From: Pirellulales bacterium
GTDB lineage: Bacteria > Planctomycetota > Planctomycetia > Pirellulales > JBFWUW01
Length of the DNA stretch: 64,000 bases
Direction: 5' to 3'
Assembly: GCA_050247075.1 (NCBI GenBank)
Contig: JBFWUW010000029.1
Location: forward strand, 9,198-73,197
Shown here: positions 18,905 to 50,387 of the stretch, piece by piece
Numbering within the stretch: the first letter of the stretch is position 1
How the letters are laid out: each line of letters starts with the position of its first letter
Translations under genes and position numbers: made by a program
The notes under the pieces: generated by a model
Told to the model about the DNA's origin: nothing
What the model saw: the letters and a program-made list of their open reading frames with translations, nothing else
Database searches by the model: none

Positions 18905-19009
18905 TGGCACGAACTTTGATGGCCTGCATGGGCCTGGCGACATTTTCTTGAATAACAGGCCTGAAGAAGGCCCAACACAACAACCCGCAAGCACAGACGA
19001 GCAATATTT

Positions 19010-20659: not shown

Positions 20660-20754
20660 GAATTGCGCTTGGATTGCCAAGTTCCCGGCCCACAAGACGA
20701 TATCACTGAACCCAACCACGTTGCTCAGCAAGCCCAGGCCATCAGGAGGCTGCC

Positions 20755-34730: not shown

Positions 34731-35900
34731 ATGGCCATTCTGATCGACAAGCTGTTGCAGACGGTCATTGCCCAGGGGGCCAGCGACTTGCACATTTCGG
34801 TCGGCCAGCCGCCGGTACTGCGCCTGCACGGTCACATGGCCAAAGTGCCGACCAAGATTCTGGAGCCGGCCGATACGGTTGGCCTGATGAAACAGATCAC
34901 GCCCGAGCGCTGCCAGCAGCAGCTAGCCGAACTTGGCGGGGCAGACTTTGGTTTTGCCTTTGGCGACCAGGCGAGGTTCCGCGTTTCCATATTTAAGCAA
35001 CGCAGCCATGTCGGCATGGTGCTGCGGATTATCCCCAACTCCATGCTCTCGGTTGAGCAACTTAAGCTGCCTTGGCCATGCGTTGACCTGGTCAAGCGGC
35101 CCCGCGGGTTGTTCTTGGTGACGGGCCCCACCGGTTCGGGCAAGAGCACCACATTGGCCGGGCTGGTGAATTATCTCAATGAGAACGTCGACCACCACAT
35201 CATTACGGTCGAAGACCCCATTGAGTTCTACCACTACCATAAGAAATCGACGATCAACCAGCGTGAGGTGGGCGTCGATGTGCAAAGCTTCTCGGCCGCT
35301 TTGCGGGCTGCCTTGCGGCAAGACCCCGACGTGATCCTGGTCGGCGAAATGCGCGATCTGGAAACGATCGAAGCGGCCATTACGGCGGCCGAGACGGGCC
35401 ACGTCGTCTTCGGAACGCTGCATACCAATTCGGCCGAGGGCACGGTCAACCGCATCATCGACGTCTTTCCCAACTCGCAACAAGACCAGATTCGCACGCA
35501 GTTGGCTTCGTCCATCATTGGCATTTTGTGCCAACAGCTAATTCCCAAGATCGGCGGCGGCCGCGTGGCCGCCCATGAAATGCTGGTGGTCACGCCCGCC
35601 ATTTCCAACCTGATTCGCGAGAACAAGATTTTCCGTATCACATCGTCGATACAGACGGGTGCCAAATACGGCATGATACTGTTGGACGACTCGCTCTTCA
35701 ACCATTGGAAGGCCAAGGCAGTGAGCAAGGAAGATGCCTTAAGCAAGGCCAACAAGCCGGACGACCTGCGGCTGCGCATCGAACGGGCGGAAAAAGGCCT
35801 GCTCGACGGGGAGGAAGACGACGATGACGACGACGATGATGATGATGACGATGATCCCCGCGCCGCGATGCGGGCGCGAATGGATGGCAAGAAAAAGTAG
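34731..35900 (+). CDS. pilT: PilT-type retraction ATPase with polyaspartate C-terminal tail
   Basis: ASDLHISVGQPP, Walker A GPTGSGKSTTLA, VILVGEMRD, VFGTLHTNSA, and the PilT-specific AISNLIRENK motif. Tail EEDDDDDDDDDDDDD lies at 35811-35855. Confidence 0.85.
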   Translation: MAILIDKLLQTVIAQGASDLHISVGQPPVLRLHGHMAKVPTKILEPADTVGLMKQITPERCQQQLAELGGADFGFAFGDQARFRVSIFKQRSHVGMVLRIIPNSMLSVEQLKLPWPCVDLVKRPRGLFLVTGPTGSGKSTTLAGLVNYLNENVDHHIITVEDPIEFYHYHKKSTINQREVGVDVQSFSAALRAALRQDPDVILVGEMRDLETIEAAITAAETGHVVFGTLHTNSAEGTVNRIIDVFPNSQQDQIRTQLASSIIGILCQQLIPKIGGGRVAAHEMLVVTPAISNLIRENKIFRITSSIQTGAKYGMILLDDSLFNHWKAKAVSKEDALSKANKPDDLRLRIERAEKGLLDGEEDDDDDDDDDDDDDPRAAMRARMDGKKK

Positions 35901-37800: not shown

Positions 37801-39135
37801 ATGCCAAGCTATTCCTTTGAGGCGATGGACGCGACCGGGCAAGAGATCAAGGACGTGATCGAAGCCACGAGCGAGGAAGAAGCGCAAGCGACAATTCGCC
37901 AGATGGGGTACTTCGTCACGAAGATCTCCGTCAAGAAAGCCAAGAAAGCCGCCGCCGAGGGGAAGAAGGTCAAGCCGGGCCGCTCCAGCTTTGTCATCGG
38001 CCGCGTCAATACCAAGACGCTCACGCTGTTCACACGGCAACTCTCTATCCTGCAAGATGCCGGCCTGCCCATCCTGAGAAGCCTGCGCATTCTCGAGGGC
38101 CAGTCCAAGCCGGGCCGCATGAAAAACGCCCTGATGGATGTCTGCGACGATATCGAGAGTGGCTCGACCCTGTCAGAGTCGATGGGCAAGCAACCCAAGG
38201 CGTTTAATCGACTGTATGTCAACATGATCAAGGCGGGCGAGGCCGGCGGTGCCTTGGAGCTCATTCTGCAGCGTCTGGCCGAGTTCTTGGAAAAGGCCGA
38301 GTCGCTCAAGCGCAAGGTCAAAGGGGCCATGATCTACCCCATCGTGGTCGTGTCGGTGGCGGTGCTGATCTTGACCTTCATCATGATCAAAATCGTCCCC
38401 GCCTTCCGCGAAATCTTCGAGGACTTCGGTATCGACCTCCCCCCCATGACCGAGGCCCTTATCTGGACCAGCACCATGGTCTTCAATTACTGGTACCTCA
38501 TCCCCGGCATTCCTATTTTGATCTGGCTAACGGTCAAGGTGATACGCAAGTTCGAATACGGCCGCTACGGCTGGGATGTGTTCACCCTGAAAATGCCCGT
38601 GTTTGGCATGATCGTTGAAAAAAACATCGTGGCCCGCACCACGCGTACCTTGGGCACACTGGTTGCCAGCGGCGTCCCCATTCTCGAAGCGCTAAACATC
38701 ACTCGCGAGACGAGCGGCAACTTCATTTTCGAGAACATGTACGGCAAGATCTACGACTCCATCCGCGAGGGCGAAACGATCGCCCGTCCCATGAAAGAGT
38801 GGTCGCGGCCGCGGTTCAATGCCATGGCGGTCTTTTTCTGGTTTGGATTTGTCGGCGGACCAATCGGCGTGCTGATTTACCTGATGAAGATGCGGCAGCG
38901 CGTGTTGGACGATCTGGTGGTGAACATGGTCGACGTGGGTGAAGAGACGGGCGAACTCGACACCATGCTCTACAAAGTCGCCGACAACTACGACGAGGAA
39001 GTCGCCGTTCTCACGGAAAGCCTGGTCAGCCTGCTTGAGCCGCTGATGATCTGCGTGCTGGGTGGCATGGTCGGGTTCATCGTCATCGCCTTGTTCTTGC
39101 CGCTGATCAAAATCATTCAATCGTTGACGGGTTAA
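37801..39135 (+). CDS. PilC/GspF platform protein with an extra hydrophobic insert
   Basis: Two T2SSF-type repeats (LSILQDAGLP...MIKAGEAGGALE and TLVASGVPILEAL...MVDVGEETGELD). Three canonical TM regions plus an additional hydrophobic segment at 38806-38901. Confidence 0.85.
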   Translation: MPSYSFEAMDATGQEIKDVIEATSEEEAQATIRQMGYFVTKISVKKAKKAAAEGKKVKPGRSSFVIGRVNTKTLTLFTRQLSILQDAGLPILRSLRILEGQSKPGRMKNALMDVCDDIESGSTLSESMGKQPKAFNRLYVNMIKAGEAGGALELILQRLAEFLEKAESLKRKVKGAMIYPIVVVSVAVLILTFIMIKIVPAFREIFEDFGIDLPPMTEALIWTSTMVFNYWYLIPGIPILIWLTVKVIRKFEYGRYGWDVFTLKMPVFGMIVEKNIVARTTRTLGTLVASGVPILEALNITRETSGNFIFENMYGKIYDSIREGETIARPMKEWSRPRFNAMAVFFWFGFVGGPIGVLIYLMKMRQRVLDDLVVNMVDVGEETGELDTMLYKVADNYDEEVAVLTESLVSLLEPLMICVLGGMVGFIVIALFLPLIKIIQSLTG

Positions 39136-39662: not shown

Positions 39663-40727
39663 ATGAACGCCTTCCGTCCTCATGTCACCCCACTTCATTC
39701 GCGGCGGGGCTTTACGTTGATCGAGCTGCTAGTCGTGATCCTCATCATCGGCCTGCTGGCGGCGTTGGTCTCCACGGCCGTCTTCAAGGCCCTGACGACC
39801 AGCAAGCAGGCGGTGCTCAAGGTTGAAATCGGCGAAATGGACCGGGCCTTAAAGGACTACGCCAATAACAATGGTGGGGCCTATCCCCCTAGCTTCGCCT
39901 CATACTCGCCCGCCGTCACCGCCGAGGCCCGTGTTTGGCAACACATTCAACGGCGGTTTCCACGTTACACACCGGCGAATACCAGCGGTGCCACTCCTTA
40001 CGAAAATTTCCGGCTCGACGTGCGAGATCAATCGGTCAATTGCGGGTTTGCTGCCAACGCGCTCGACACTCGCAACCTGGACCAGGCCGAGGCCCTGGTC
40101 TTTTGGCTGGGCGGACTCCCCTGCCCCAACACGGAGCGGCGGATGGTCGGATTCAGTAAAGATCCTTCCCAGCCGTTCATCGGCTTCAACCCCGCCAATA
40201 ACGCCGGCCAGCCGCAGCGCACCGATCCTTTCCCTTTTGACTCCACCCGGCTGGTCGATCGCGATGGCGACAACTGGCTGGAGTACATCCCCAAGGGCAC
40301 CTCGCCTACCGGCGACATGCCCCCATTTGTCTACTTCGACGCGCAAAGTTACACCAGCCACACCTACGTCAGCGGCACCGACTTGCCGATGGCTCCTTAC
40401 CCCTTTTCGTCGGGCGGCGTCACTCGCGGCCCGACAAGCAACATCGCCGCGTGGGGCCAGTGCTGGCCGATGTGGCGGGTTGCGCCAACGCCATCATCGT
40501 CGCCGACCGTCGCTCCGCAGTGGGTCAACTCCGATTCGTTTCAAATCATCTGCGCTGGCCTGGATGGTGCCTACAGCACGATCGGTGATGAATCGACCAC
40601 GAATCCCGAGACGTACCCCACGCTATTGACGTATCCCAGCGGTACATCGGATACCGGCGCGCTGACCGACAATATCACCAGCTTCGCCGAAAGCATTCTC
40701 AAGGAAGATCGGGAAAAACAAAGGTAA
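39663..40727 (+). CDS. Prepilin-type (pseudo)pilin, 354 aa
   Basis: MNAFRPHVTPLHSRRG/FTLIELLVVILIIGLLAALV is a canonical class III leader with G-1, F+1 and E+5. AGGAG lies 10 nt upstream of ATG 39663. Confidence 0.75.
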   Translation: MNAFRPHVTPLHSRRGFTLIELLVVILIIGLLAALVSTAVFKALTTSKQAVLKVEIGEMDRALKDYANNNGGAYPPSFASYSPAVTAEARVWQHIQRRFPRYTPANTSGATPYENFRLDVRDQSVNCGFAANALDTRNLDQAEALVFWLGGLPCPNTERRMVGFSKDPSQPFIGFNPANNAGQPQRTDPFPFDSTRLVDRDGDNWLEYIPKGTSPTGDMPPFVYFDAQSYTSHTYVSGTDLPMAPYPFSSGGVTRGPTSNIAAWGQCWPMWRVAPTPSSSPTVAPQWVNSDSFQIICAGLDGAYSTIGDESTTNPETYPTLLTYPSGTSDTGALTDNITSFAESILKEDREKQR

Positions 40728-40775: not shown

Positions 40776-41894
40776 ATGCGACGGGATTGTTTTATGGTTG
40801 GTCGCCTACAAAGTACACGCTTGGCGCGGCGCGGCTTTACGCTGGTGGAGGTGTTAATCACCATCACCATCATTGGGCTGCTGACATCGCTGTTCTTGGC
40901 GGCCCTGGCCGCTTCGCAGCAGCAAGCCCGCGAGGCCCGCACCAAAAGCATGATCGCCCGGTTGGACGCGGTCATTATGTCCCGCTGGGAAAGCTACCGC
41001 ACGCGGCGCGTACCCATCAACACAACGGGGTTGAATCCCAGTGCAGCCAATGGCTTGCGGTTGCTGGCCATGCGCGAGTTGCAGCGACTAGAAATGCCGC
41101 AACGCTGGGAAGACGTGGTGGACGACCCCTCCGCTTGGCCATCCGCGGCACCGGTAACAACCACGTCCGGAATTCCTATCCCCGGTTTGTCGCTGGGTTA
41201 TCGCCGCCGGTTCAACGCCAGTTCCGTAACGTCCTACAATGGTACGACCACCACCACGGTCGCCACGCAGCCCACATCGCAATACCAAGGGGCGGAATGC
41301 CTCTACTTGATCGTCACGTGCGGTGGATTGGAAGAAGATGTGACCCCCATCGATCAGTTTCGCGGCTTGGACGTGGGCGATCTGGACCGTGACGGCATGC
41401 CAGAGTTCCATGACGGCTGGGGCAACCCCATAACATTTTTGCGGTGGGCTCCCGGCTGGGTTTCGGACGTGCAGCCCAATCCCGGTTGGGATTTCACCAC
41501 CTACCCGCGCGTGCCAACCCCGCAAGCCGCCCCCGCGCCTTACGACTTTGCCATCGCCCGGCACGATGCCTTCGACCCAGCCAAACTTGCCTTCAATCTC
41601 CCCTCCACCACCGATCCCAACCCGCGGGGATTTGTTCTGTCGCCATTGATCATGTCGCCGGGCCCCGATGGAATCCTCGATACCTGGCACGTCAGCGGCG
41701 ATGCGACCGACTTTCCCGCGGGCCTGCTGCCGGCGAACTTGAACGATCCCTACTACGTGCCGGCCAGCGCCGGGCGTTATCCGTCGGGCTGGCCGTTGGA
41801 CTATAACGCGCCCGTGCCAACGGGCATTCCCACGCCCGAAGGCTACTGGCTCGACAACATCCATAATCAACAGTTAGGAGCGCTGGCCAAATGA
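40776..41894 (+). CDS. Prepilin-type pseudopilin, ~372 aa
   Basis: ...STRLARRG/FTLVEVLITITIIGLLTSL has G-1, F+1 and E+5. The stop overlaps the next start (ATGA at 41891-41894). Confidence 0.75.
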   Translation: MRRDCFMVGRLQSTRLARRGFTLVEVLITITIIGLLTSLFLAALAASQQQAREARTKSMIARLDAVIMSRWESYRTRRVPINTTGLNPSAANGLRLLAMRELQRLEMPQRWEDVVDDPSAWPSAAPVTTTSGIPIPGLSLGYRRRFNASSVTSYNGTTTTTVATQPTSQYQGAECLYLIVTCGGLEEDVTPIDQFRGLDVGDLDRDGMPEFHDGWGNPITFLRWAPGWVSDVQPNPGWDFTTYPRVPTPQAAPAPYDFAIARHDAFDPAKLAFNLPSTTDPNPRGFVLSPLIMSPGPDGILDTWHVSGDATDFPAGLLPANLNDPYYVPASAGRYPSGWPLDYNAPVPTGIPTPEGYWLDNIHNQQLGALAK

Positions 41895-43114
41895 CGACGA
41901 CGAACAGCCGCGCCGGCTTCCGGACAAACCACGCCCGCACTGGCTTTACCATTTTGGAACTGCTGATCGTGATTACGATCATGCTGGCGGTGACGGCGAT
42001 GGCCATTCCATTGCTGGCTCCCTCGCGCGAGGACCGCCGCGTCAACGAGGCCTCGCGGATCATCACCAGCATGTTCGCGGGTGCCCGCTCCCGCGCCATC
42101 GAGATCGGCCGTCCTGTGGGGGTCACGCTCGAACGCGATCCCACCAATCCGTTCCGCGTGCTGACGTTGTCTTACGCGGAGGTTCCCCCCCCCTTCGCCG
42201 GCGGTTTTATCAATTCGCGGATCATTATCGAAGGCGAACCGACGGCGGGCGATACCGACATGAGCGGCACCATCGACCCCGGCGAGTTCACCGACTGGAA
42301 TGGCAACGGCTATTACGACAGCGGCGGATTCATTACCTCCATTACCGCCGACGGCTCCAACCCCGATACCTTTTGGCAAGGCCTGATCCGGCCCGGCGAC
42401 GCGCTCAAGCTCAACTACCAGGGCTACGAATACACCCTGGGGCTGCCTGCCATGTTCAGCGGCAATCTCGACGCCAACGGATATTTCAACACGCTCGATC
42501 CCGACAATCCGTGGCAACTGGCGACGATCGCCGGCGGTGCCGGCGCGGTCGGGGGCGTTATTTCTGATGCCGTTACGGTCCCCAAGACACCCTTCGTCGA
42601 AGACCCCAGCGGTTCCGGTACCGGCGTGGATGGGCGGTTCACCCCCGGCACCGATGTGGGCGGGCTGCCATTTCAGATCATCCGCGGGCCGCAAAGATCG
42701 GCCGGCAAGACAGAGACCCTGCCAGAAACGATGTGCATCGACCTGGCCGGCACGAGTACCGCCGCCGACCCGTTTGCGTTGACGGCCTACACGGGCGATA
42801 TCACCGTCATGTACAACCCCGGCGGTTCCGTCGACTCCATTCGCTGGGCCAGCGGCCCGCAAGTCGCGCCCATCGGCCCGCTGTTTCTGCTCATCGGCAA
42901 GACATTTCTGGTGGGGGGCAACGTAGCGCCCAAGCCGGGCGAGCCGGTCTACAACTGGCAAGACCTGGATGCCCGCTGGCTGATGATCAACCACCAGTCG
43001 GGCTTGCTGGCCAGTAATCCCACGACATCGGTGGATACCACGTTGTCGGCGGACCAACAGATCATCCAGTCCCGCTCGATCGCCCGCGAGGGGATTAAGG
43101 TAGGAGATAAGTAG
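41891..43114 (+). CDS. Prepilin-type pseudopilin, GspH/FimT-like, 407 aa
   Basis: ...NHARTG/FTILELLIVITIMLAV followed by RVNEASRIITSMFAGARSRAIEIGRPVGVTL, which resembles the GspH/FimT N-terminal region. Confidence 0.75.
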   Translation: MTTTNSRAGFRTNHARTGFTILELLIVITIMLAVTAMAIPLLAPSREDRRVNEASRIITSMFAGARSRAIEIGRPVGVTLERDPTNPFRVLTLSYAEVPPPFAGGFINSRIIIEGEPTAGDTDMSGTIDPGEFTDWNGNGYYDSGGFITSITADGSNPDTFWQGLIRPGDALKLNYQGYEYTLGLPAMFSGNLDANGYFNTLDPDNPWQLATIAGGAGAVGGVISDAVTVPKTPFVEDPSGSGTGVDGRFTPGTDVGGLPFQIIRGPQRSAGKTETLPETMCIDLAGTSTAADPFALTAYTGDITVMYNPGGSVDSIRWASGPQVAPIGPLFLLIGKTFLVGGNVAPKPGEPVYNWQDLDARWLMINHQSGLLASNPTTSVDTTLSADQQIIQSRSIAREGIKVGDK

Positions 43115-43115
43115 C

Positions 43116-43150
43116 AATGTCGAATGTCGAGTGCCGAATGTCGAATTTTA
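43116..43150. repeat. Heptamer array (AATGTCG family), 4-5 units, spanning the start codon of pseudopilin 4
   Basis: aatgtcg aatgtcg agtgccg aatgtcg aatttta. Each unit carries an ATG or GTG. Confidence 0.75.
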
Positions 43151-44307
43151 GCCGGCCGCCGCGGGCCACGAACCGCCGCGGTATTACCCTGCTGGAGTCG
43201 CTGTTCGCCATTTTCGTGGCGGCCATTGGCATCCTGAGCCTGGCGGCGCTGCTGCCGGTTGGCAAGTTCTTGATCACCCAGGCCGAGCACAGCGACCGCG
43301 GCGCGGCCGTGGCCGAGGCGGCCATGCAAGAATTGATCAACCGCGGGCTGGTGGCGACGGCAAACCAGGTTGGCGCCACCGACATGATTGTCCTCGATCC
43401 TTGGTTTTTGTCGCGGCAGCCCAATCCGGCCGCGCCAGAGATCATGAGTTTTCCCTATGACAGCAGCGCTACTTCGTCCAATTATCTGAATGGCGGTACG
43501 CCGCCGCTGTTACCCCGGTGGACGGTGGTCCCCGCTTTTTCAACCTTGTCCGGCCAGGCAGCCCATCGCGAGGCCGCCGACCGCGTGTTCACCTCGCACG
43601 ACGACCAGATCATGACCGAGGTCGCCGCCGTCGGGCAGCGGCCGCAGGCTCTGCCCACAACGGGTGCCTCGTCCGTGTACCAAGGAGATTACTCCTGGCT
43701 GGCCACCATCACGCCGGCGCTCAGCCAGCGGTTTACCGCCAAGACCATGTTCACCGTGCAGGTAGCCGTCTTCCACAAGCGAGAGCCGCTCCCTCCGGTC
43801 GATGCCCAGGTGAAGACCCCCAGCGAGCGGATCGTGCTGGCCGACATTTTTGGCACCGGCGTCGGTGGCGGCAGCGTGCAATTTCGCGTCCCCGCCGGGA
43901 CGAACAACGACTTCCTCAAGCTCAAGACCAACCAATGGGTGATGCTCGTCGGCTACGAGGCCATCGGCACGGCCATCAATCCTTACAACGGTGCCACCAT
44001 TCCCTCGGTGACCACGCCCGCCGGGACGGGTAAGAACCGTATCGTGGCCCGTTGGTATCGCATTGTCGGCCTGGCCGAAATGACCCCCGGCACCACCACC
44101 GGCGCGCGCGAGGCGACCTTGGCCGGTCCCGATTGGAACACGTCCGTCGCCACGTTCGACAGCGACGACGACGGCGTGGGAGACATTGTCTACGACGCCG
44201 ACAGCGGCACCGCCGGCGTTCAGGTCCACGCCTACTTGCTCTCCGACTGCGTCACCGTCCAAGAACGAACCATCAAGCTGGATATCTCCGCGCTCAACGG
44301 TTACTAA
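43117..44307 (+). CDS. Prepilin-type pseudopilin, GspI/PilV-like, 396 aa
   Basis: ...ATNRRG/ITLLESLFAIFVAAIGILSLAAL has G-1 and E+5. The start lies inside a heptamer array, and an alternative in-frame ATG is at 43138. Confidence 0.7.
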   Translation: MSNVECRMSNFSRPPRATNRRGITLLESLFAIFVAAIGILSLAALLPVGKFLITQAEHSDRGAAVAEAAMQELINRGLVATANQVGATDMIVLDPWFLSRQPNPAAPEIMSFPYDSSATSSNYLNGGTPPLLPRWTVVPAFSTLSGQAAHREAADRVFTSHDDQIMTEVAAVGQRPQALPTTGASSVYQGDYSWLATITPALSQRFTAKTMFTVQVAVFHKREPLPPVDAQVKTPSERIVLADIFGTGVGGGSVQFRVPAGTNNDFLKLKTNQWVMLVGYEAIGTAINPYNGATIPSVTTPAGTGKNRIVARWYRIVGLAEMTPGTTTGAREATLAGPDWNTSVATFDSDDDGVGDIVYDADSGTAGVQVHAYLLSDCVTVQERTIKLDISALNGY

Positions 44308-44411: not shown

Positions 44412-47400
44412 ATGTCTCGCCGATCATCGCGCCGTTCCGTTCGTGCCACCCGCCGCCCGCGCCGCCAAGGCGTGATTTTGCTGGTGGTGCTGAGCGTGCT
44501 GGCCTTATTCACGCTGTTGGTGCTGACGTTTGTGGTCTACACGTCGCAGCACCGCAAAACGGCGGCCGCCGCCGCCAAGGCCGACCGCTACGACGACACC
44601 TTTTCCGACCTGCTCAACCACGCCATGCTGCAAATTGTGCGCGGCAGCGACAACCCGTACTCGTTCGTCGGCACGCACGGGCTGCTGGAAGACATGTACG
44701 GCAATGACTGGCTCACCGGCACGCTGGTGGCCGGCGGCAGCGGCGTGCCGACCACCTTCGCCCTGGGCTATCAATATGGCTACGACGGCTCGTCGGGCGT
44801 CCCCAGCATGATGTACTTTGACGTGCCGCTCACAGGGGCAGACGGCGCGCCGGGCCGTTTGAACATCGACGACGACAGCAACGGCATGATCGACGATGCC
44901 TCGGAACTGGGCTATTACGGCAGCGACGACTACCGCCAGACCAACGGCTACTACAACGGCCGCGTTCTCACCATGCTGGGCGGCCCCGCGGGCGGGCAAA
45001 CCACGCGGATCACCGGCTATGCCGTCGATACGGCTGGCGGCTACGCCCGCATCGTGATGCTGCCATTTGAAACCATGAGTACCAATGGCGCAACCTGGAA
45101 TGCCGCCGGGGCTCCACAGGTGGGAAACAACTTCATCATCAATGGCCGCCCCTTCAGCGGTACGGGGTTTGGGTATGACTCCAGCACCGGGCTGACCAAT
45201 CGGCAAGACGGGATTGGCCGGGAGTACGCCTTGCTCCCCTTTGCGCCTATCCCCCTGCCCGACTCTGTATCAAGTTATGCCAACGAGTGGGTTGACCATC
45301 AGGCTTATATTCTTGGCCCGGACGGCGTCGCCGGCACGCCCGACGATCCCATCAACGCCAACGAGGATTACGACGGACCCGACTACAACAACATGATGCT
45401 GGCCGGCCGCGTGTGGACCGGCACCCACTACGAGGTTGCCTTGCCGTCGCTGGTGCGGCCAGACCTCATCCGCTACTGGTTTGCGCGGCAAACCGCCGCG
45501 GGGGTCGATATGACCACGCCCGCCAATCAATTTGCCATCCTAAAGCGTACTTGCCCGCGGCCTTTGCCCCTCACGCCTGGTCATCCTTTGTTTACGGGCA
45601 GCAACCCCAGCTTTGCTACCAGCAGCCTGTGGACCGACGCCGATTCCGCCGGTACGGCCACGGGAATCATCGACGCCATGCGCAACCGCAACTGGGATGT
45701 GGACAACGACGGCGACGGCCGGCCCGACAGCGTATGGATCGACTTTGGCTTCCCCGTGCAAACCGCCCCCGACGGCCGCCGCTACAAACCGCTGATAGCC
45801 CCGCTGGTGCTAGACATGGACGGCCGGCTGAACGTCAATGCGCATGGCACAGGCTACCACTACGCCGTGGATGGATCGGGCAACGAAATCTATGTTGGCC
45901 TGAACGAGTTCCCCGGCAACTTCGCGGGGGGCCAAGGTTTCACCACGCCCATTCCCATGGCTACCGGTTCTGGCGTGTCGGCCGCCGAGGTCAGCCTGGG
46001 CGCGCCGGCGCCGAACCAATCGATTGTCGCGCGGCCTTACCTGGCCAACGACGGCACCACCATCATCAACGAATATCGCCGCTTGTTACTGGGGGGCTAC
46101 CCCATCGACACCCGCACCGGCAATTTGGATGGCACCAAGCCGTGGTTGGAAGGCAAGTATGGCGAGGGCTTTTTGAATTTCGACGGCTCGGGCCGGTTTC
46201 CCATGCCCGGCCTGACGAGTGCCGCCACACCATTGGGCAATGGGCCCGATGGGACCGCGAACACGGCCGATGACGTGTTTGACGGCGATTTCAACTACCC
46301 GGTTTGGCCCATGCCGTTCGTCAGTGGCGCAACGGCGGGCACCTTCCGGGGCGATTTCAGCACCAACACCTTCTACGCCGGCAGCAGCGGCGCCATCGGC
46401 GTGCTGGGCTCGCCCATCGACCTGGACGGCAACGGCGTCATGGGTTTGGACCTCATGGGCAATCCCTTCTACGTGCTTCAGGCGGGCGTTAATCCGCTGC
46501 CAGGGTATACCGCGGTGGGCCTGGGCGAAGCCTTCAACGACCCCATGGAGTTGGACCTTTCGACCAAGGCCGCGCGCACGTTTTACAATACGGCCACCGG
46601 CTCGGCCGGCACGATCGACCAGCCCTTTACGCCGGCGGAACTGGAAGCCATTTTGCGCCGTCGCGATAGAGACGCCCGCACCCTGGCCGACCGTATGATC
46701 CGGCTGGCTCCGCGGACCTTTGGCAGCGACCGCGGCACGCAGTCAATCACCACGGAAAGCTGGAACGTGGCCATGCCAACCGTCACCCTGCCAGAGGAAC
46801 TGCGGCGCGTGTTGGTCTCCAACGGCATCCCCGTGCCGACCAATTTGCACATCAATGACCTGTACGCCCTTAAGTTGCTCAACGAGAACGGCACTTTGAC
46901 AGCGGCAATGCTCAATGCCAATCTGGCGATCATGCTGCCGGTCGACCTGGCGGCCGGCTTGCGGCTGGACATCAACCGCCCCCTGGGCAACGGAGCCGAC
47001 GACAACGGCAACGGCGTGGTCGATGATCCGGCCGAGGCGCTGGCGGGCGAACCAATCTGGAACGGCTCGGTCATCGGCCCGGTCTTCATGAACCACAGCA
47101 ACGACAATATCCCCGCCAACCGTTACCTGGCCCGGCAGCAATTGGCCCGGCAGTTGTATTGCTTGATGATGCTGCTCAAGGACTCTGGCTATATCGAGCC
47201 AGTCAGCGCGGCGGAAGGCCTGAGCGACGCGCAACGGGTGGAACTGACCGCCCGGCGGATCGCGCAATGGTGCATCAACGTGGTGGACTTCCGCGACCGC
47301 GACTCGATCATGACGCCGTTTGAGTACGACGTCTTTCCGTTTGTCGATGCCAACAGCGACGGCATCACTTGGGACGTAGACGGATGGGTAGGCTACAACG

Positions 47401-50387
47401 CCGTCACCGGGGCCGCCAGCGTGGACGACAACGACCTCACCAACTACCCGCACCGCCGGCTGGTGTGGGGTTGCGAACAGCCCGACCTGCTGCTGACGGA
47501 GTCGTTTGCCTTTCACGATACCCGCACCGAGAATTTGGCTACCCCGATGGGCCTCTATTCCGATGGTACGATGGGCGATACTAACTTTGATCAGCGGAAG
47601 TTGCCTCGCGGCGCGGGTTTCGTCGAAGTGCAATGCGTGCGGAATCCCAACAACACGGCCTACATGGGCGACCTGTACCGTGCCAACGGGTATCTCGACC
47701 TGGGCAAGATGTCGCCCGCCGGTACGACGGGGCAGTACCCGGTCTGGCGGCTGGCGGTGACCTATGGCGGGAAGGAAGACGACACGAACCTGGCGGTAAC
47801 GGGAGGTGACCGCAACGACATTTCGAAACGGGCATATACCCGGCCCGATACCACCACGTTTCAGCCCGACGACATGAACCCACTGAGCGCCTCGCATATT
47901 CCAGGGGCGGCCTATCCGGTCCCCGCGGGTGGTATTATTACGGCAGCCTCGCCGCTTGCCGCGACGGAGACCCAGAATGCCGAGATTGAACGAATTGTCT
48001 GGTTTTGCTCGGTGCCGCCCACCAACGGCACCACGATTGACGCCGATCGTATTTACTATAACTACGGCCCAGGTCCTGGCGTGGGAGCGACCAACGTCTT
48101 GCTCGGTCCAGGCCAATTCGCGGTTGTCGGCCCTTATCGCAACCCCGACTCTGGTCCCGACAACATCACCAACATCGGTCCCAGTGCCGCGGGCAACGTC
48201 GCCGCCGAGATTTGGCTGGGCAACACGCCAGCGGCGGCACTGCCGGATGGCACCCCCAACACCGGTTGCCGCGTACCGGTTAAAGTGACCGACAATGGCG
48301 GTGGCGACAATTACCCCGCCATCGGCGATATCCAAACGCCGTTGGGGATTGCCGTGGCGGGCGATCCCAACGGGACGGCCAACGAAACGAACAACGGCTG
48401 GGATACACCCATCGGTTTCAGCATTTCCGAACCCTTATTTTCGGACGCCAGCTATTACCCTAAACCTGACGATAGCGGTAACACCACCTCGATCGAACAC
48501 TACGAAGGTTCAACATCAACCGAGACAGACCAGTTTGTGACGCCATTGGACGAACCGTTCGATCACGATTCTGCTCGGCCACTTGGTGCCAAACCGGACG
48601 CCGAGGCCGTCTACCACACTCATGGCACTCGCCTTGGGTACAAGACAGTATTTCTGCAACGACTGGCAGATCCGACGATCGCCTGGAACCCCATGCCCGG
48701 CCAGACCGGACACAACAGCTCGTTGCCGGTCAATCCTTACTTGACGGTTGATTGGATGCCAATTGACTTGACGGTCTTCAATAGCGAGCCCGCGACACCC
48801 GCTGGGGTGACAGATCCCGATGGGAACGGATCATTGCCGTATTATTTTGGTACACGGCAACGAGGCGTTCCACGTACCCCACCAGGCAGCGGCGGGACGT
48901 ACAACATATGGGCGCAACCGCCAGTAAATGGTCCCGGTACTAGTTGGGATGCCGCCAACACACGGCTGACAACGCCGGTCACGCCCGTCTCGAGCAACCC
49001 CGACACAACGTTGGGATACATCAATCTGCCGTTTACACTGCCGGCCGCCGCGCCAGGCTACGCGGCCCCAGGCTATTTGACCGCCACGAATCTGGCGACC
49101 AAGGCCCCCGGCTATCCCACGACCTACCTGGGTGATCCCGGCTACGTCAGCGGCCCCACGTATGTCGGCGGGCCGATGCCGCCGGAAATCACCGTTAACG
49201 GTGTTACTTATCCCGTAGGCACGACTTATCCCAACTTGTCTTGGAATAATCGCCCCTATACCAGCGGCCTGGAGGTGATGCAGGTTCCGGCCAGTAGTTG
49301 CAGCCGCTTGCTGCACGAATTCAGCTTTGGCGGGCTGCGCGAGTACGCCGGTCCCGCGCCTGGCGCGCCGGGCGATGGAGCCGCCTTTGCCGAAGGAACC
49401 GCCAATGGACGGCCCTTTGGGCACTTGCTGAACCTGTTCACATCGTCTAACGACTTGCCGGCACCAACGTATCAACCTGAAAATCCAGCGCTGGCCCGCA
49501 GCAACTACCATCGTGTGCTGGATTATCTCACGGTGCCTTCGCGCTATTCCGGCACCAAGGATGCCCTCAACCCGGCCGCCGTGTGGGATACGGCCAGTGC
49601 CAGCTTGCCGTTCCATGTGCCGTTCAATACCGTCTCGCGCTATCGCGAGCCAGGCATGGTGAACCTGAATACCCTCATGGACGATGGCACTATTTTCCGC
49701 GGAGTCATGAACGACTACCCCAGTGCCGGGACAACCTGGCTGGCCATGTTGCAAAGCCGGCGCGGTTATGGCGGCGTGGTGGCTGCTCCACTTCAGGCGT
49801 TAATGTACGATGCCAGCAACTATTCGCCCACGATCTTTGCCAACCCGTTTCGATCGTTTGGCAGCGGCTATAATGTGCCGGTGCCGGCGCTGCGGTACCG
49901 CAACGTCGATCCGTCGGGCACGACTTTCTTGCCCCGCGATCTGGTTGAGGCGGGCCTGCTTCGTCCGATTCCCTTGGATACGGACCAAAACAACTTCACG
50001 CCGCCGAACAGCCCGCTGTTCTCTAACAACACCGGCTTTACGGCTCTCTATACGCCAGACGCCACCATGTCGGTGCCGTTCCGCAACGCCACCCGCAACC
50101 CGCGGTTCCGCTATGAACAGTTCCAAAAATTGGGGAACGTGGCGACCACGCAATCGAACGTGTACGGCATTTGGATCACGGTCGGCTATTTCGAGGTAGC
50201 TCCGGTGCGGGTAACGGCGGCTAATCCCGAAGGGGTGCAATTGTTGGGCGAGCTAGGCTCTGACACAGGCGAAATCAAACGCCACCGGGCCTTCTACCTG
50301 TACGACCGCTCAATCCCCGTGGCCTTCCAGCGCGGCATGGACCACAACGTGGACAAGGCCTTGCTGGTGAGGAGAATCATCGAGTAA
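44412..50387 (+). CDS. Giant (1,991 aa) GspK/PilX-class pseudopilin-like protein with multiple DxDxDG acidic loops
   Basis: MSRRSSRRSVRATRRPRRQG/VILLVVLSVLALFTLLVLTF is a basic leader plus hydrophobic helix without Glu+5, as in GspK. Five DxDxDG-type loops. AAAGAGGA sits upstream of the ATG. The single uninterrupted ORF has G/C-rich third codon positions. Confidence 0.75.
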   Translation: MSRRSSRRSVRATRRPRRQGVILLVVLSVLALFTLLVLTFVVYTSQHRKTAAAAAKADRYDDTFSDLLNHAMLQIVRGSDNPYSFVGTHGLLEDMYGNDWLTGTLVAGGSGVPTTFALGYQYGYDGSSGVPSMMYFDVPLTGADGAPGRLNIDDDSNGMIDDASELGYYGSDDYRQTNGYYNGRVLTMLGGPAGGQTTRITGYAVDTAGGYARIVMLPFETMSTNGATWNAAGAPQVGNNFIINGRPFSGTGFGYDSSTGLTNRQDGIGREYALLPFAPIPLPDSVSSYANEWVDHQAYILGPDGVAGTPDDPINANEDYDGPDYNNMMLAGRVWTGTHYEVALPSLVRPDLIRYWFARQTAAGVDMTTPANQFAILKRTCPRPLPLTPGHPLFTGSNPSFATSSLWTDADSAGTATGIIDAMRNRNWDVDNDGDGRPDSVWIDFGFPVQTAPDGRRYKPLIAPLVLDMDGRLNVNAHGTGYHYAVDGSGNEIYVGLNEFPGNFAGGQGFTTPIPMATGSGVSAAEVSLGAPAPNQSIVARPYLANDGTTIINEYRRLLLGGYPIDTRTGNLDGTKPWLEGKYGEGFLNFDGSGRFPMPGLTSAATPLGNGPDGTANTADDVFDGDFNYPVWPMPFVSGATAGTFRGDFSTNTFYAGSSGAIGVLGSPIDLDGNGVMGLDLMGNPFYVLQAGVNPLPGYTAVGLGEAFNDPMELDLSTKAARTFYNTATGSAGTIDQPFTPAELEAILRRRDRDARTLADRMIRLAPRTFGSDRGTQSITTESWNVAMPTVTLPEELRRVLVSNGIPVPTNLHINDLYALKLLNENGTLTAAMLNANLAIMLPVDLAAGLRLDINRPLGNGADDNGNGVVDDPAEALAGEPIWNGSVIGPVFMNHSNDNIPANRYLARQQLARQLYCLMMLLKDSGYIEPVSAAEGLSDAQRVELTARRIAQWCINVVDFRDRDSIMTPFEYDVFPFVDANSDGITWDVDGWVGYNAVTGAASVDDNDLTNYPHRRLVWGCEQPDLLLTESFAFHDTRTENLATPMGLYSDGTMGDTNFDQRKLPRGAGFVEVQCVRNPNNTAYMGDLYRANGYLDLGKMSPAGTTGQYPVWRLAVTYGGKEDDTNLAVTGGDRNDISKRAYTRPDTTTFQPDDMNPLSASHIPGAAYPVPAGGIITAASPLAATETQNAEIERIVWFCSVPPTNGTTIDADRIYYNYGPGPGVGATNVLLGPGQFAVVGPYRNPDSGPDNITNIGPSAAGNVAAEIWLGNTPAAALPDGTPNTGCRVPVKVTDNGGGDNYPAIGDIQTPLGIAVAGDPNGTANETNNGWDTPIGFSISEPLFSDASYYPKPDDSGNTTSIEHYEGSTSTETDQFVTPLDEPFDHDSARPLGAKPDAEAVYHTHGTRLGYKTVFLQRLADPTIAWNPMPGQTGHNSSLPVNPYLTVDWMPIDLTVFNSEPATPAGVTDPDGNGSLPYYFGTRQRGVPRTPPGSGGTYNIWAQPPVNGPGTSWDAANTRLTTPVTPVSSNPDTTLGYINLPFTLPAAAPGYAAPGYLTATNLATKAPGYPTTYLGDPGYVSGPTYVGGPMPPEITVNGVTYPVGTTYPNLSWNNRPYTSGLEVMQVPASSCSRLLHEFSFGGLREYAGPAPGAPGDGAAFAEGTANGRPFGHLLNLFTSSNDLPAPTYQPENPALARSNYHRVLDYLTVPSRYSGTKDALNPAAVWDTASASLPFHVPFNTVSRYREPGMVNLNTLMDDGTIFRGVMNDYPSAGTTWLAMLQSRRGYGGVVAAPLQALMYDASNYSPTIFANPFRSFGSGYNVPVPALRYRNVDPSGTTFLPRDLVEAGLLRPIPLDTDQNNFTPPNSPLFSNNTGFTALYTPDATMSVPFRNATRNPRFRYEQFQKLGNVATTQSNVYGIWITVGYFEVAPVRVTAANPEGVQLLGELGSDTGEIKRHRAFYLYDRSIPVAFQRGMDHNVDKALLVRRIIE

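What the first reader, a model, noticed from the sequence alone, without database searches (positions are those of the whole stretch)
44412..50387. 1,991-aa GspK/PilX-class pseudopilin-like giant with five Ca-loop-type motifs
Seen in sequence:
- One uninterrupted ORF directly follows four prepilin-type genes.
- Its N-terminus MSRRSSRRSVRATRRPRRQG/VILLVVLSVLALFTLLVLTF has a basic leader, Gly and a hydrophobic helix but no Glu at +5.
- It carries five DxDxDG-type acidic loops: NIDDDSNGMIDD 44862-44897, DVDNDGDGRPDS 45696-45731, DLDGNGVMGLD 46419-46451, DDNGNGVVDD 46998-47027 and DANSDGITWDVD 47346-47381.
- GRLNVN and LDINRP are reminiscent of the GspK xNVNTA motif.
- There is a PGY-rich stretch at about 49040-49175 and a C-terminal strand-like segment (SNVYGIWITVGYFEV ... 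RAFYLYDRS).

Established: lack of Glu+5 is the hallmark of the GspK/PilX tip subunits, which are normally only a few hundred residues long. PilY1-type tip adhesins use DxDxDG-like Ca sites.

Inference: a pilus-tip subunit that has absorbed an adhesin-sized Ca-binding module. That would make it a covalently anchored tip adhesin rather than a separate PilY1.
Basis: partly seen in the sequence, partly recalled or inferred. Interest (0 to 1): 0.75.

Follow-up and report, generated by a model that had tools for sequence, protein, structure and literature searches.

The report
Giant GspK-like pilus tip protein
A 1,991-residue planctomycete protein looks like a six-fold enlarged version of the small cap subunit (GspK/PilK) that starts and tips type IV filaments. 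It defines a large, unannotated family that probably carries its own binding module on the tip of a retractile pilus.

Summary
The ORF 44412-50387 (+) is real and all the listed motifs are at the stated coordinates. It is the last gene of an operon: PilB-like ATPase, PilT, PilB/GspE-like ATPase, GspF/PilC, four Glu5 prepilins, then the giant. That is the slot GspK holds in E. coli gspE-F-G-H-I-J-K.

The family is large: 2,128 representatives at 50% identity, 282 species genomes, and the 80 loci examined are all Planctomycetota. Members are 1,525-2,646 aa, all 'hypothetical', with no Pfam, NCBIfam or PDB sequence match. Synteny is almost invariant.

The N-terminus (RRG|V[IL]LL[VI]VL, never Glu at +5) matches a GspK profile best. 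Seven further local profile matches include five that lie in GspK order. Their chain score is 123.5, against 14-41 for five control profiles.

In an AlphaFold model of aa 1-270 joined to aa 1690-1991, confidence in the C-terminal sheet rises from about 50-79 to 86-91. This suggests a split pilin domain closed in cis.

Against this, Foldseek found no pilin match, Pfam T2SSK does not fire, and calcium binding and adhesion are only inferred.

Verdict: probably an apical GspK/PilK-class minor pilin with about 1,650 aa of interleaved conserved insertions. It is a new, extreme variant of a known kind.

The parts
32706..34415 (+). PilB-like extension ATPase, paralogue 1 (569 aa)
   Evidence: Pfam T2SSE 5.6e-133 plus MshEN. 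TIGR02538 PilB scores 623 bits and TIGR02533 GspE 610 bits, both just under their cut-offs.
34731..35900 (+). PilT/PilU-family retraction ATPase (389 aa)
   Evidence: TIGR01420 scores 444.7 bits, above its cut-off of 319.1. Present in 46 of 48 related loci with enough upstream DNA.
35976..37685 (+). PilB/GspE-like ATPase, paralogue 2 (569 aa), with an N-terminal MshEN-type c-di-GMP motif
   Evidence: Pfam T2SSE 5.4e-136. NF053729 c-di-GMP_motif scores 43.7 bits, above its cut-off of 38, at residues 5-58.
37801..39135 (+). GspF/PilC platform protein (444 aa)
   Evidence: Pfam T2SSF 8.7e-60. TIGR02120 GspF 5.9e-111.
39663..40727 (+). Prepilin 1, GspG-like N-terminus (RRG|FTLIE); probable major subunit; 354 aa
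   Evidence: N_methyl 5e-8. hhalign against E. coli GspG gives P=3.7e-14, N-terminal 60 residues only.
40794..41894 (+). Prepilin 2 (RRG|FTLVE), 366 aa; minor pilin of unresolved type (G/H/J-like)
   Evidence: N_methyl 1.5e-6. hhalign results.
41891..43114 (+). Prepilin 3 (RTG|FTILE), 407 aa; GspH-like N-terminus
   Evidence: TIGR01708 GspH 2.2e-7. hhalign against GspH gives P=3.2e-8.
43117..44307 (+). Prepilin 4 (RRG|ITLLE), 396 aa; weakly PilV/GspI-like
   Evidence: TIGR02523 PilV 1.3e-4. hhalign against GspI gives P=8.9e-5. N_methyl is below its cut-off.
44412..50387 (+). The giant: 1,991-aa GspK/PilK-like apical minor pilin candidate (stop codon included)
44412..44471 (+). Basic leader ending in Arg-Gln-Gly20 (aa 1-20); putative prepilin-peptidase site after Gly20
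   Evidence: In 109 homologues, -3 is R in 100, -2 is R in 85 and -1 is G in all 109. Median leader length is 22 aa.
44472..44642 (+). Alpha-1 helix (aa 21-77), hydrophobic then amphipathic, with Val at +5
   Evidence: AlphaFold predicts helices at aa 19-60 and 64-77 with pLDDT 84-92. hhalign aligns aa 19-84 with GspK 6-74, P=5e-6, probability 86%.
45693..45737 (+). Nearly invariant acidic loop WDVDNDGDGRPDSVW (aa 428-442), DxDxDGxxD type
45807..45848 (+). VLDMDGRLNVNAHG (aa 466-479): counterpart of the first GspK 'i.D...FNLNA' motif
   Evidence: hhalign score 29.5 against GspK 97-108. Nearly invariant in the family.
46974..47036 (+). Conserved acidic loop NRPLGNGADDNGNGVVDDPAE (aa 855-875)
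47262..47336 (+). AQWxxNVVDFRDRDSIMTPFEYD block (aa 951-975), one of the best-conserved; aligned to the GspK 'i.DWiD.D' motif
   Evidence: Mean frequency of the commonest residue is 0.82. hhalign aligns aa 957-970 with GspK 148-161, score 22.9. This is weak alone but lies in the collinear chain.
47469..48791 (+). Beta-rich body, aa ~1020-1460, the confidently modelled part of the insertion; fold not matched to anything known
   Evidence: AlphaFold pLDDT is mostly 75-90. Foldseek finds nothing in the PDB or BFVD at E<1.6.
49242..49289 (+). WNNRPYTSGLEVMQVP (aa 1611-1626): counterpart of the GspK 'N.pl.svsELr.v' motif
   Evidence: hhalign score 21.6 against GspK 179-192, collinear.
49644..49772 (+). 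REPGMVNLNT...SRRGYG (aa 1745-1787): counterpart of the second GspK 'xINvNTa ... R..g' helix-hairpin-helix-like unit
   Evidence: hhalign P ranges from 2.3e-4 to 8e-3 depending on the alignment used.
50154..50384 (+). C-terminal five-strand sheet (aa 1915-1991), ending in the near-invariant R-x-I-E-COOH; proposed to close the pilin domain in cis
   Evidence: The segment is nearly invariant; the invariant and near-invariant residues are listed. pLDDT is 46-79 when modelled without the N-terminus. It is 86-91 when aa 1-270 are present.
16826..22593 (+). Possible assembly-platform cluster 10 kb upstream. It comprises a PilM fused to a transmembrane segment and periplasmic part (692 aa), followed by two bitopic proteins (549 and 612 aa) with no family match.
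   Evidence: TIGR01175 pilM scores 145.8 bits, above its cut-off of 133. Amuc_1101-family PilM-like gives 2e-58, below its cut-off. Pfam PilM_2 1.5e-32. Transmembrane segments. Its link to this operon is an inference.

Best explanation
The giant is the GspK/PilK-class apical minor pilin of a Planctomycetota-specific, probably retractile type IV filament.

Inferred mechanism:
1. A prepilin peptidase cuts after Gly20.
2. The Glu5-less alpha-1 helix holds the protein in the inner membrane.
3. The N-proximal strands and the extreme C-terminal strands fold into one split pilin domain. The protein thus supplies the final 'licensing' beta strand in cis, as GspK, ComGG and CpaL/TadG do.
4. Two or three of the preceding Glu5 minor pilins dock on it to form the initiation complex.
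5. The GspG-like prepilin then polymerises underneath, driven by the PilB-like ATPases. PilT retracts the filament.
6. The ~1,650 residues inserted between the GspK landmarks therefore ride on the filament tip. They are beta-rich and carry conserved DxDxDG-type loops that probably bind calcium.
7. The tip module most likely acts as a built-in binding module, in place of a separate PilY1/PilC or MshQ protein.

Shown here: the gene order, family size, N-terminal signature, collinear GspK-like motifs, and the dependence of C-terminal model confidence on the N-terminus.

Inferred only: cleavage, tip location, calcium binding and ligand binding.
For: - Operon slot: the order is PilB-like, PilT, GspE-like, GspF, four Glu5 prepilins, then the giant. 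It parallels E. coli gspE-F-G-H-I-J-K.
- Synteny: 54 of 56 related loci with at least 5 kb upstream have at least 3 of the 4 pilin families directly upstream. 47 of 48 with at least 9.5 kb have GspE and GspF, and 46 of 48 have PilT.
- N-terminus: RRG|V(I/L)LL(V/I)VL in 109 of 120 homologues; the other 11 are truncated gene calls or have Ala for Gly. Residue +5 is never Glu. The E. coli GspK N-terminus reads QRG|VALLIVLMLLAL.
- Profile-profile: aa 19-84 align with GspK 6-74 at P=5e-6. This beats the match to the co-encoded pilins.
- Body: seven further local matches to GspK. Five are collinear: aa 466-477, 737-755, 957-970, 1613-1626 and 1746-1786 against GspK 97-108, 120-138, 148-161, 179-192 and 212-254. 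The other two are cross-matches between the two xNxN units. The collinear chain score beyond the helix is 123.5. Reversed GspK and the four neighbouring pilin families give 14-41.
- Shuffled or reversed GspK gives best single scores of 13.5-25.2.
- A separate run aligns aa 1922-1930 with the GspK 'S.YF' strand at 284-292.
- Structure: in a model of aa 1-270 joined to aa 1690-1991, the C-terminal sheet has pLDDT 86-91. Without the N-terminus it has 46-79. The alpha-1 helix is predicted at aa 19-60.
- Literature: PilK-family subunits are completed by a C-terminal strand either in trans (PilC/PilY1, MshQ) or in cis. In systems without a tip adhesin they carry large insertions; CpaL is ~600 aa with ~470 dispensable middle residues, and ComZ is another case (PMC13533445). 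GspK binds calcium at two canonical sites and XcpX at three (PMC6211770).
- Acidic loops: 7 DxDxDG-type hits against 0.29 expected, and the family mean is 4.5.
Against: - No Pfam or NCBIfam model for T2SSK, PilX_N, PilY1 or any other family reaches E<=0.1 on the whole protein. None reaches E<=10 on fragments or on ten C-terminal fragments of relatives.
- A family profile finds no PDB sequence.
- Foldseek with the joined model finds no pilin or GspK (best E=0.27, unrelated). Half of that model has low confidence, and it comes from an artificial construct.
- Apart from the helix, the single best motif match has P of only 2e-4 to 8e-3. The rest are individually within noise.
- No prepilin peptidase or secretin is in the window.
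- It is not explained how a ~210-kDa tip would cross the outer membrane.
- No recognisable adhesin or lectin domain was found, and calcium binding rests on motifs only.
Confidence: 0.7

Rival explanations
1. It is a GspK homologue, but of a type II secretion-like machine. It would cap a short periplasmic pseudopilus, and its large body would work in the periplasm or at the outer-membrane channel. Possible roles are piston head, substrate dock or gate, rather than being displayed on an extracellular pilus as a binding module.
For: - The collinear motifs are those of T2SS GspK (two xNxN units, DWxDxD-like motif). They are not those of T4aP PilX, and PilX_N does not fire.
- Both ATPases score almost as well on the GspE model as on the PilB model.
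- The first prepilin is most like GspG.
Against: - A true PilT-family ATPase (444.7 bits against a cut-off of 319.1) sits in the operon in 46 of 48 loci. Classical T2SS lack PilT; that statement is from established knowledge.
- A PilM gene is nearby.
- No GspC, L, M or D genes were found in the window.
- All subunits are 2-3 times the size of pseudopilins.
Confidence: 0.12
2. It is not a pilin at all. It would be a membrane-anchored or secreted surface protein whose N-terminal hydrophobic helix is an ordinary signal anchor or signal peptide. It would merely be co-transcribed with the pilins, perhaps acting in trans like PilY1 or MshQ by donating its C-terminal strand to one of the four upstream pilins.
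For: - No pilin or T2SSK model fires.
- Foldseek gives no pilin match.
- N-terminal fragments also give weak hits to generic single-pass membrane proteins such as FliL and anti-sigma factors.
- MshQ-like large proteins are known to follow the minor pilin genes (PMC13533445).
Against: - Gly at -1 is invariant, the helix is conserved, and the predicted continuous helix is ~42 residues long. These are pilin-like features, not signal-peptide-like ones.
- The N-terminus matches GspK best, and the alignment runs to aa 84, beyond the membrane segment.
- The GspK motifs are collinear through the body.
- None of the four upstream pilins resembles GspK or lacks Glu5, so the K slot would otherwise be empty.
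- C-terminal sheet confidence depends on the protein's own N-terminus.
Confidence: 0.13
3. It is the Planctomycetota counterpart of the 'Verru_Chthon cassette protein A' family (TIGR02600). That family comprises large proteins of unknown function that are encoded beside prepilin-like cassette proteins in other PVC bacteria.
For: - TIGR02600 is the best NCBIfam hit of the first 100 residues (E=0.0026). It recurs in 3 of 10 other N-termini (E=6.5e-5 to 0.096), always starting at Gly+1 against profile position 1.
- Prepilins 1, 2 and 3 give weak hits to cassette proteins D and C.
Against: - Scores are 10-21 bits against a cut-off of 332.
- Only the first ~47-64 of 1,296 profile positions align.
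- No hit appears on the whole protein or on internal or C-terminal fragments.
- This reading does not exclude the best explanation, since that family may itself be GspK-like. I had no sequence of that family to compare.
Confidence: 0.05

Closest known systems
GspK / XcpX / EpsK, the Glu5-less minor pseudopilin that caps the T2SS pseudopilus (Pfam T2SSK_1st PF21687 and T2SSK PF03934; ETEC GspIJK and P. aeruginosa XcpVWX structures)
   Same: - Basic leader, Gly-1, V-[AIL]-L-L-[IV]-V-L start, no Glu5.
- Last gene after E-F-G-H-I-J-type genes.
- The same order of landmarks: first xNxN unit, DWxDxD-like motif, 'NxPxxSxxEL', second xNxNT unit, and C-terminal strands that close the sheet in cis.
- An insertion inside the pilin fold.
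- GspK binds calcium (PMC6211770), and the giant carries acidic loops.
   Different: - Six times longer (1,991 aa against 327 aa).
- About 1,650 aa of conserved, mostly beta-rich insertions are spread between the landmarks. GspK has one ~180-residue alpha domain instead.
- Not recognised by the Pfam models.
- The operon contains PilT and lacks gspC/L/M/D.
PilK-family subunits with a large insertion and a cis C-terminal donor strand: CpaL/TadG of Tad pili (~600 aa), Thermus ComZ, the V. cholerae competence-pilus PilK homologue (PMC13533445)
   Same: - N-terminal pilin-like part, large middle, and an extreme C-terminal strand returning to the sheet.
- The systems lack a separate PilY1-type adhesin.
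- Joining the two ends in silico gives a confident domain, as in the CpaL 'delta-middle' design.
   Different: - Three or more times larger.
- No sequence or domain similarity was tested or found; no vWA or beta-solenoid model fires.
- The GspK-type xNxN motifs are retained.
PilC/PilY1 and MshQ, large tip-associated adhesins of T4aP and MSHA pili
   Same: Size class (1,000-1,200 aa), tip location, encoded right after the minor pilin genes, calcium-dependent function in PilY1, and a C-terminal strand that completes the PilK sheet.
   Different: - Those are not pilins. They use a Sec signal and donate the strand in trans.
- They carry a C-terminal beta-propeller (Pfam PF05567), which is not detected here.
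- Here the pilin helix and the large body are one polypeptide.
Modular pilins (S. sanguinis PilB and PilC, ETEC CofB; survey in PMC8179133)
   Same: A pilin carrier covalently joined to a bulky functional module presented at the filament tip.
   Different: - In those, the module is appended after a complete pilin module through a linker, and most have Glu5.
- The most extreme case noted in that survey is 860 aa.
- Here the extra mass is inserted inside the pilin fold, and the module matches no known domain.
Verru_Chthon cassette protein A (TIGR02600)
   Same: A large protein of a PVC-group lineage (profile of 1,296 positions), with a GspK-like N-terminal helix, encoded with prepilin-type cassette proteins. 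This description of the family is from memory and is a lead, not a test.
   Different: Only the first ~50-60 residues align, at 10-21 bits against a cut-off of 332.

Membership tests
GspK / PilK class of apical minor (pseudo)pilins | Prepilin-type leader ending in Gly, followed by a hydrophobic alpha-1 helix that lacks Glu at +5 | tested here: met
   RRQG|VILLV in the window. Gly-1 in 109 of 109 and +5 = V/I/L/F in 109 of 109 scorable homologues. Helix predicted at aa 19-60 with pLDDT 84-92. Actual cleavage cannot be tested here.
GspK / PilK class of apical minor (pseudo)pilins | Encoded last in a syntenic block of minor pilin genes, downstream of the ATPase and platform genes | tested here: met
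   Window order. E. coli gsp order. 54 of 56 and 47 of 48 related loci.
GspK / PilK class of apical minor (pseudo)pilins | Sequence match to the family models (Pfam PF21687 T2SSK_1st, PF03934 T2SSK; PilX_N PF14341) | tested here: not met
   No hit at E<=0.1 on the whole protein. No hit at E<=10 on five fragments or on ten C-terminal fragments of relatives. All 51 GspK sequences used as reference carry PF21687, and most also carry PF03934.
GspK / PilK class of apical minor (pseudo)pilins | Remote homology to GspK along the body (profile against profile) | tested here: inconclusive
   Helix P=5e-6. Second xNxNT unit P=2.3e-4 to 8e-3. Five collinear body matches give a chain score of 123.5, against 14-41 for five control profiles. 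This is suggestive. No single body match is significant alone once the search space is counted.
GspK / PilK class of apical minor (pseudo)pilins | Pilin fold in which the last beta strand comes from the protein's own C-terminus (in cis), with the insertion inside the fold | tested here: inconclusive
   C-terminal sheet pLDDT rises from 46-79 to 86-91 when aa 1-270 are added. Foldseek nevertheless finds no pilin or GspK in the PDB.
GspK / PilK class of apical minor (pseudo)pilins | Forms the tip or initiation complex with GspI- and GspJ-type minor pilins | not testable with these tools
   No multimer prediction is available. Prepilins 2-4 could only be typed weakly, from their N-termini.
PilC/PilY1 tip adhesins | C-terminal PilY1/PilC beta-propeller domain (Pfam PF05567) and a Sec-type signal, with no pilin helix | tested here: not met
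   No Pfam hit. The N-terminus is pilin-like.
Verru_Chthon cassette protein A (TIGR02600) | Score above the curated cut-off (332.3 bits) over the 1,296-position model | tested here: not met
   15.7 bits, with only aa 20-67 aligned to positions 1-47. 10.5-21 bits in 3 of 10 relatives.
Calcium-binding repeat families (FG-GAP/VCBS, thrombospondin type 3, EF-hand, dockerin) | Match to the family model, and repeated units | tested here: not met
   No such Pfam hit at E<=0.1. No internal repeats beyond the short loops themselves. Isolated DxDxDG-type loops are present. Metal binding itself cannot be tested here.
Type IV filament with retraction (T4aP-like machinery) | PilB-type and PilT-type ATPases, a PilC/GspF platform and PilM | tested here: met
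   PilT and PilM score above their curated cut-offs. The PilB/GspE-type ATPases score just below theirs. T2SSF gives 8.7e-60. Secretin and prepilin peptidase were not found in the window.

The most novel reading that the evidence does not exclude
The operon encodes the thick (~12 nm) fibres that emerge from the large crateriform structures of planctomycetes and bind dextran. The giant would be their ligand-capturing tip. PilT-driven retraction would reel bound macromolecules towards the enlarged periplasm, which would supply the missing molecular players of the debated planctomycete macromolecule-uptake route (PMC5394234, PMC12673574). The unusually large pilins (354-407 aa) would fit an unusually thick filament.
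Probability: 0.1. Interest if true: 0.85.

Novelty: new variant of a known kind. Interest (0 to 1): 0.6.

Why it matters
- Extreme case of a new model. Type IV filaments are started and tipped by a small GspK/PilK-type subunit. A 2026 model holds that its sheet is completed either by its own C-terminus or by that of a separate large adhesin (PMC13533445). This family would be the extreme 'all in one polypeptide' case. A ~210-kDa cap whose two ends form the pilin domain tests how much cargo the licensing mechanism tolerates.
- Annotation gap. The family has more than 2,000 representatives at 50% identity and occurs in at least 282 species genomes. It has no Pfam or NCBIfam model, and every source name seen for it (about a third of the 120 listed homologues carry one) is 'hypothetical protein'. 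Naming it would annotate a conserved nine-gene pilus operon across Pirellulales, Thermoguttaceae and related planctomycetes.
- Link to an open question. It gives concrete candidate genes for the planctomycete surface fibres, whose components are still called unknown (PMC12673574).
- Possible new folds. The ~1,650-aa body matched nothing in the PDB or BFVD, though only aa 1001-1991 of it was modelled.

Tried and rejected
- Pfam and NCBIfam on the whole protein, on five fragments, on ten N-termini and on ten C-terminal fragments of relatives. Nothing appeared except weak N-terminal hits to TIGR02600, ComGG and generic single-pass proteins.
- phmmer of the protein and hmmsearch of a family profile against PDB sequences: no hit for the protein, and one meaningless hit at E=1.2 for the profile.
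- AlphaFold of aa 1001-1991: mean pLDDT 61.6, with only aa ~1020-1460 confident. Foldseek of that model against the PDB and BFVD found nothing below E=1.6.
- Foldseek of the joined N+C model against the PDB: best E=0.27 (TM1086, unrelated), and no pilin.
- A deeper C-terminal alignment of 242 sequences did not improve the GspK match (P=1.9e-3).
- Self-comparison for internal repeats found none. A propeller or tandem-repeat adhesin is therefore rejected.
- A conserved downstream partner was sought and rejected. Only 9 of 57 loci have a sixth prepilin-like gene and 5 of 57 a prepilin peptidase, and neither is in the window.
- A Tat or Sec signal-peptide reading of the 'RR' leader was rejected. 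The hydrophobic stretch is ~27 residues long, a continuous ~42-residue helix is predicted, and Gly-1 is invariant.
- Literature searches for 'Verru_Chthon cassette' and for Planctomycetes with GspK or minor pilin found no paper on this family.
That region holds loops 2-5.

Full report
**Observation.** The window has 61% G+C. It carries planctomycete-specific families on the genes at 7961-16060: PSCyt1, PSCyt2, PSD1 and DUF1501. ORF 44412..50387 (+) is uninterrupted and encodes 1,991 aa. The only exception is the PGY-rich stretch, whose quoted start is 2 nt out of frame. The pattern D-x-[DN]-x-[DN]-G occurs seven times, against 0.29 +/- 0.54 in 2,000 shuffles. The acidic loops are therefore not a by-product of a protein rich in Asp, Asn and Gly. 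Their conservation differs. Loop 1 (aa 151-162) lies in an insertion that most relatives lack. Loop 2 (WDVDNDGDGxPDSVW) and loop 4 (NRPxGNGxDDxGNGVVDxPxE) are nearly invariant or conserved. Loops 3 and 5 are partly conserved. The PGY stretch is a variable linker.

**Surroundings.** The giant is the last gene of a co-directional block. The block comprises:
- a PilB-like ATPase (32706-34415);
- a true PilT-family ATPase (34731-35900; TIGR01420 at 444.7 bits against a cut-off of 319.1);
- a second PilB/GspE-like ATPase with an MshEN-type c-di-GMP motif (35976-37685);
- GspF/PilC (37801-39135);
- four prepilins with G|xTxxE.

The four prepilins are 354-407 aa, two to three times the size of E. coli GspG-J at 125-195 aa. 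By their N-termini they are most like GspG (prepilin 1, P=3.7e-14), GspH (prepilin 3, P=3.2e-8) and GspI/PilV (prepilin 4, weak). Prepilin 2 is unresolved. The order matches E. coli gspE-F-G-H-I-J-K, so the giant holds the K slot. MscL follows downstream. A PilM fused to a transmembrane and periplasmic part, plus two bitopic proteins, lie at 16826-22593. No secretin or prepilin peptidase was found in the window.

**The family.** The word-index search found at least 348 relatives. The 120 listed are 1,525-2,646 aa (median 1,785). None has a Pfam domain. Every name a source gives is 'hypothetical protein', and every organism named is a planctomycete. An exhaustive search with aa 1590-1991 found 2,128 representatives at 50% identity with E<=1e-3, and 830 with E<=1e-30. 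In the 150 best hits listed, the match runs to within a few residues of the protein's C-terminus in nearly all. A scan of one genome per species found 282 genomes with a relative. The 80 best are Pirellulales, Thermoguttaceae, Bythopirellula, Blastopirellula, Lacipirellula and similar, plus one labelled Phycisphaerales. Synteny is almost invariant. In 54 of 56 loci with at least 5 kb upstream, at least three of the four pilin families sit directly upstream. In 47 of 48 loci with at least 9.5 kb there are GspE and GspF, and in 46 of 48 there is PilT. Nothing is conserved downstream.

**Is it GspK-like? The N-terminus.** In 109 of 120 relatives the N-terminus reads RRG|V(I/L)LL(V/I)VL.LLALF. The other 11 are truncated gene calls or have Ala for Gly. 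Gly-1 is invariant and +5 is V, I, L or F, never Glu. E. coli GspK starts QRG|VALLIVLMLLAL. I built a profile of 51 diverse GspK sequences, all carrying Pfam T2SSK_1st. It aligns with the family's aa 19-84 at P=5e-6 and 86% probability. That is better than the match to the four co-encoded pilin families (scores 24-36 against 40). GspK also matches the giant better than it matches those pilins. Library HMMs alone are not decisive here. The best NCBIfam hit of the first 100 aa is TIGR02600, 'Verru_Chthon cassette protein A' (E=0.0026), followed by ComGG. Both are far below their cut-offs, and generic single-pass proteins score similarly.

**Is it GspK-like? The body.** Against the full-length family profile, the GspK profile gives seven more local matches:

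| Giant (aa) | Giant motif | GspK (aa) | GspK motif | Score or P |
|---|---|---|---|---|
| 466-477 | clDlDGRLNLNA | 97-108 | i.D...FNLNa | 29.5 |
| 737-755 | | 120-138 | | 16.0 |
| 957-970 | VVDFRDrDsIMTPF | 148-161 | i.DWiD.D | 22.9 |
| 1613-1626 | NRPfxSxxELmxVP | 179-192 | N.pl.svsELr.v | 21.6 |
| 1746-1786 | EPGrVNiNT...SRRGY | 212-254 | xiNvNTa...R..g | 33.5; P=2.3e-4 in a sub-alignment |

The remaining two matches are cross-matches between the two xNxN units. A separate run pairs aa 1922-1930 with the GspK 'S.YF' strand at 284-292. Individually, only the first and last rows exceed the controls. Reversed GspK gives best scores of 25.1 and 15.6, and column-shuffled GspK gives 13.5-25.2. 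All five are collinear, however. The best collinear chain beyond the helix scores 123.5. Reversed GspK and the four real pilin-family profiles of similar length score 14.4-41.4, and those give only 1-3 hits each. I read this as genuine remote homology to GspK, with large insertions between the landmarks. Against it, Pfam T2SSK and T2SSK_1st never fire, even at E<=10 on fragments and on ten relatives. A deeper alignment did not sharpen the match (P=1.9e-3).

**Structure.** AlphaFold on aa 1001-1991 (41-sequence alignment) gave a confident beta-rich body at aa ~1020-1460. The rest was poorly defined, including the C-terminal sheet at pLDDT 46-79. I then modelled aa 1-270 joined directly to aa 1690-1991. 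This is an artificial construct, used only in silico. It gave a 42-residue alpha-1 helix (aa 19-60, pLDDT 84-92) and N-proximal strands at pLDDT 76-92. The five C-terminal strands (aa 1917-1990) now reach pLDDT 86-91. The rise suggests that the two ends of the protein pack into one domain. That is inferred from confidence values only, since no coordinates were available. Such packing is what a pilin fold split by an insertion requires. It parallels the CpaL 'delta-middle' design of PMC13533445. Foldseek, however, found no GspK or pilin in the PDB with this model (best E=0.27, unrelated). It found nothing for the body in the PDB or BFVD.

**How it most likely works.** The following rests on established knowledge of type IV filaments (PMC13533445, PMC6211770, PMC8179133) and is inference for this protein. 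The Glu5-less K-type subunit is the first subunit to enter the filament and ends at the apex. Its sheet must be completed by a terminal strand. That strand comes in trans from PilC/PilY1 or MshQ, or in cis from GspK, ComGG, CpaL/TadG or ComZ. Systems without a separate adhesin tend to carry a large insertion before that strand. Here there is no PilY1-type gene. The K-slot protein has both a pilin N-terminus and a nearly invariant C-terminal sheet ending in R-x-I-E-COOH. About 1,650 conserved residues lie in between. The giant is thus best read as the cis extreme of that scheme: cap, licensing strand and tip module in one chain, on a filament that PilT can retract. A binding role for the body and calcium stabilisation of its DxDxDG loops are plausible. 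GspK and XcpX bind calcium (PMC6211770). Neither role is tested, and no adhesin, lectin or calcium-repeat model fires. There are no internal repeats.

The picture of a few-hundred-residue pilin that absorbed one adhesin-sized module does not fit. The extra mass consists of several insertions between GspK landmarks, and all of them are conserved across a family in which the shortest of the 120 listed members is 1,525 aa. LDINRP has no GspK counterpart. The better second xNxNT motif is GMVNLNT at aa 1748. One of the five loops is lineage-specific.

**Rivals.**
- (a) A T2SS-type periplasmic pseudopilus cap. This is disfavoured by PilT in 46 of 48 loci, by PilM, and by the absence of gspC/L/M/D.
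- (b) A non-pilin surface protein with a signal anchor, acting in trans. This is disfavoured by the invariant Gly-1, the long helix, the GspK-specific matches, the otherwise empty K slot, and the dependence of the C-terminal sheet on the protein's own N-terminus.
- (c) A counterpart of Verru_Chthon cassette protein A. Only the helix aligns, at 10-21 bits against a cut-off of 332. This is unresolved and does not exclude the main reading.

**Novelty and verdict.** No paper in the library treats this family. Databases call its members hypothetical. The kind is known: a K-type apical minor pilin with an insertion and a cis strand. The scale, the interleaved architecture, the unmatched folds and the phylum-wide conservation are new, so I rate it a new variant of a known kind. 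Confidence that it is a GspK/PilK-class apical subunit is 0.7. Interest is 0.6. The most novel reading not excluded is that it is the ligand-capturing tip of the crateriform-structure fibres implicated in planctomycete macromolecule uptake (PMC5394234, PMC12673574). I give that a probability of about 0.1.

Noticed in passing
window 16826-22593 (+): A PilM fused to a transmembrane segment (aa 384-404) and a ~290-aa periplasmic part (692 aa). It scores above the TIGR01175 cut-off and resembles the Akkermansia Amuc_1101 PilM-like family at 2e-58. Two bitopic proteins (549 and 612 aa) follow. They have no family match and have long Gly/Ala/Pro- or Asp/Glu-rich low-complexity regions. This may be the PilN/O/P-type alignment complex of the same filament.
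   Followed up: partly
window 32706-37685 (+): Two full-length PilB/GspE-like ATPase paralogues flank PilT, and the arrangement is conserved in many related loci. The second paralogue passes the NCBIfam MshE-type c-di-GMP-binding motif cut-off (43.7 against 38 bits). The first does not (25.9 bits). This hints at c-di-GMP control of extension.
   Followed up: partly
window 39663-44307 (+): All four Glu5 prepilins are 354-407 aa, two to three times the usual size. Their globular parts match no family. Prepilin 4 has a weak FG-GAP_3-like acidic loop at residues 324-358 (E=0.016).
   Followed up: partly
L002 15928-17754 and eight other loci; L032 17444-18286 and four other loci: In 9 of 57 related loci a sixth prepilin-like gene (~608 aa, RRG|FTLVE) directly follows the giant. 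In 5 of 57 a prepilin peptidase gene lies ~2 kb downstream. Neither is present anywhere in this window.
   Followed up: yes
window 12025-14619 (-) and 53246-55768 (+): Two long ORFs (863 and 840 aa) have no Pfam match. The first lies between DUF1501 and PSCyt2/PSD1 genes that are typical of planctomycetes.
   Followed up: no
window 46743-48335 (-), 48831-49754 (-), 44505-45206 (-): Long antisense ORFs (up to 530 aa) lie inside the giant gene. This is expected by chance in 61% G+C DNA and is not evidence of overlapping genes.
   Followed up: no
window 29677-30786 (-) and 30913-32535 (+): A SUFU-domain protein and a ComM/Mg-chelatase-like AAA protein lie just upstream of the pilus ATPase genes. 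ComM-type proteins act in natural transformation in other bacteria (from general knowledge). Any link to this filament is untested.
   Followed up: no
L054, L008, L015, L018, L075: Several long-read MAG loci show the pilus genes and the giant split into many short ORFs. These are probably frameshift errors of the assemblies rather than pseudogenes. L054 is the only long locus where GspE and GspF were not detected upstream.
   Followed up: no
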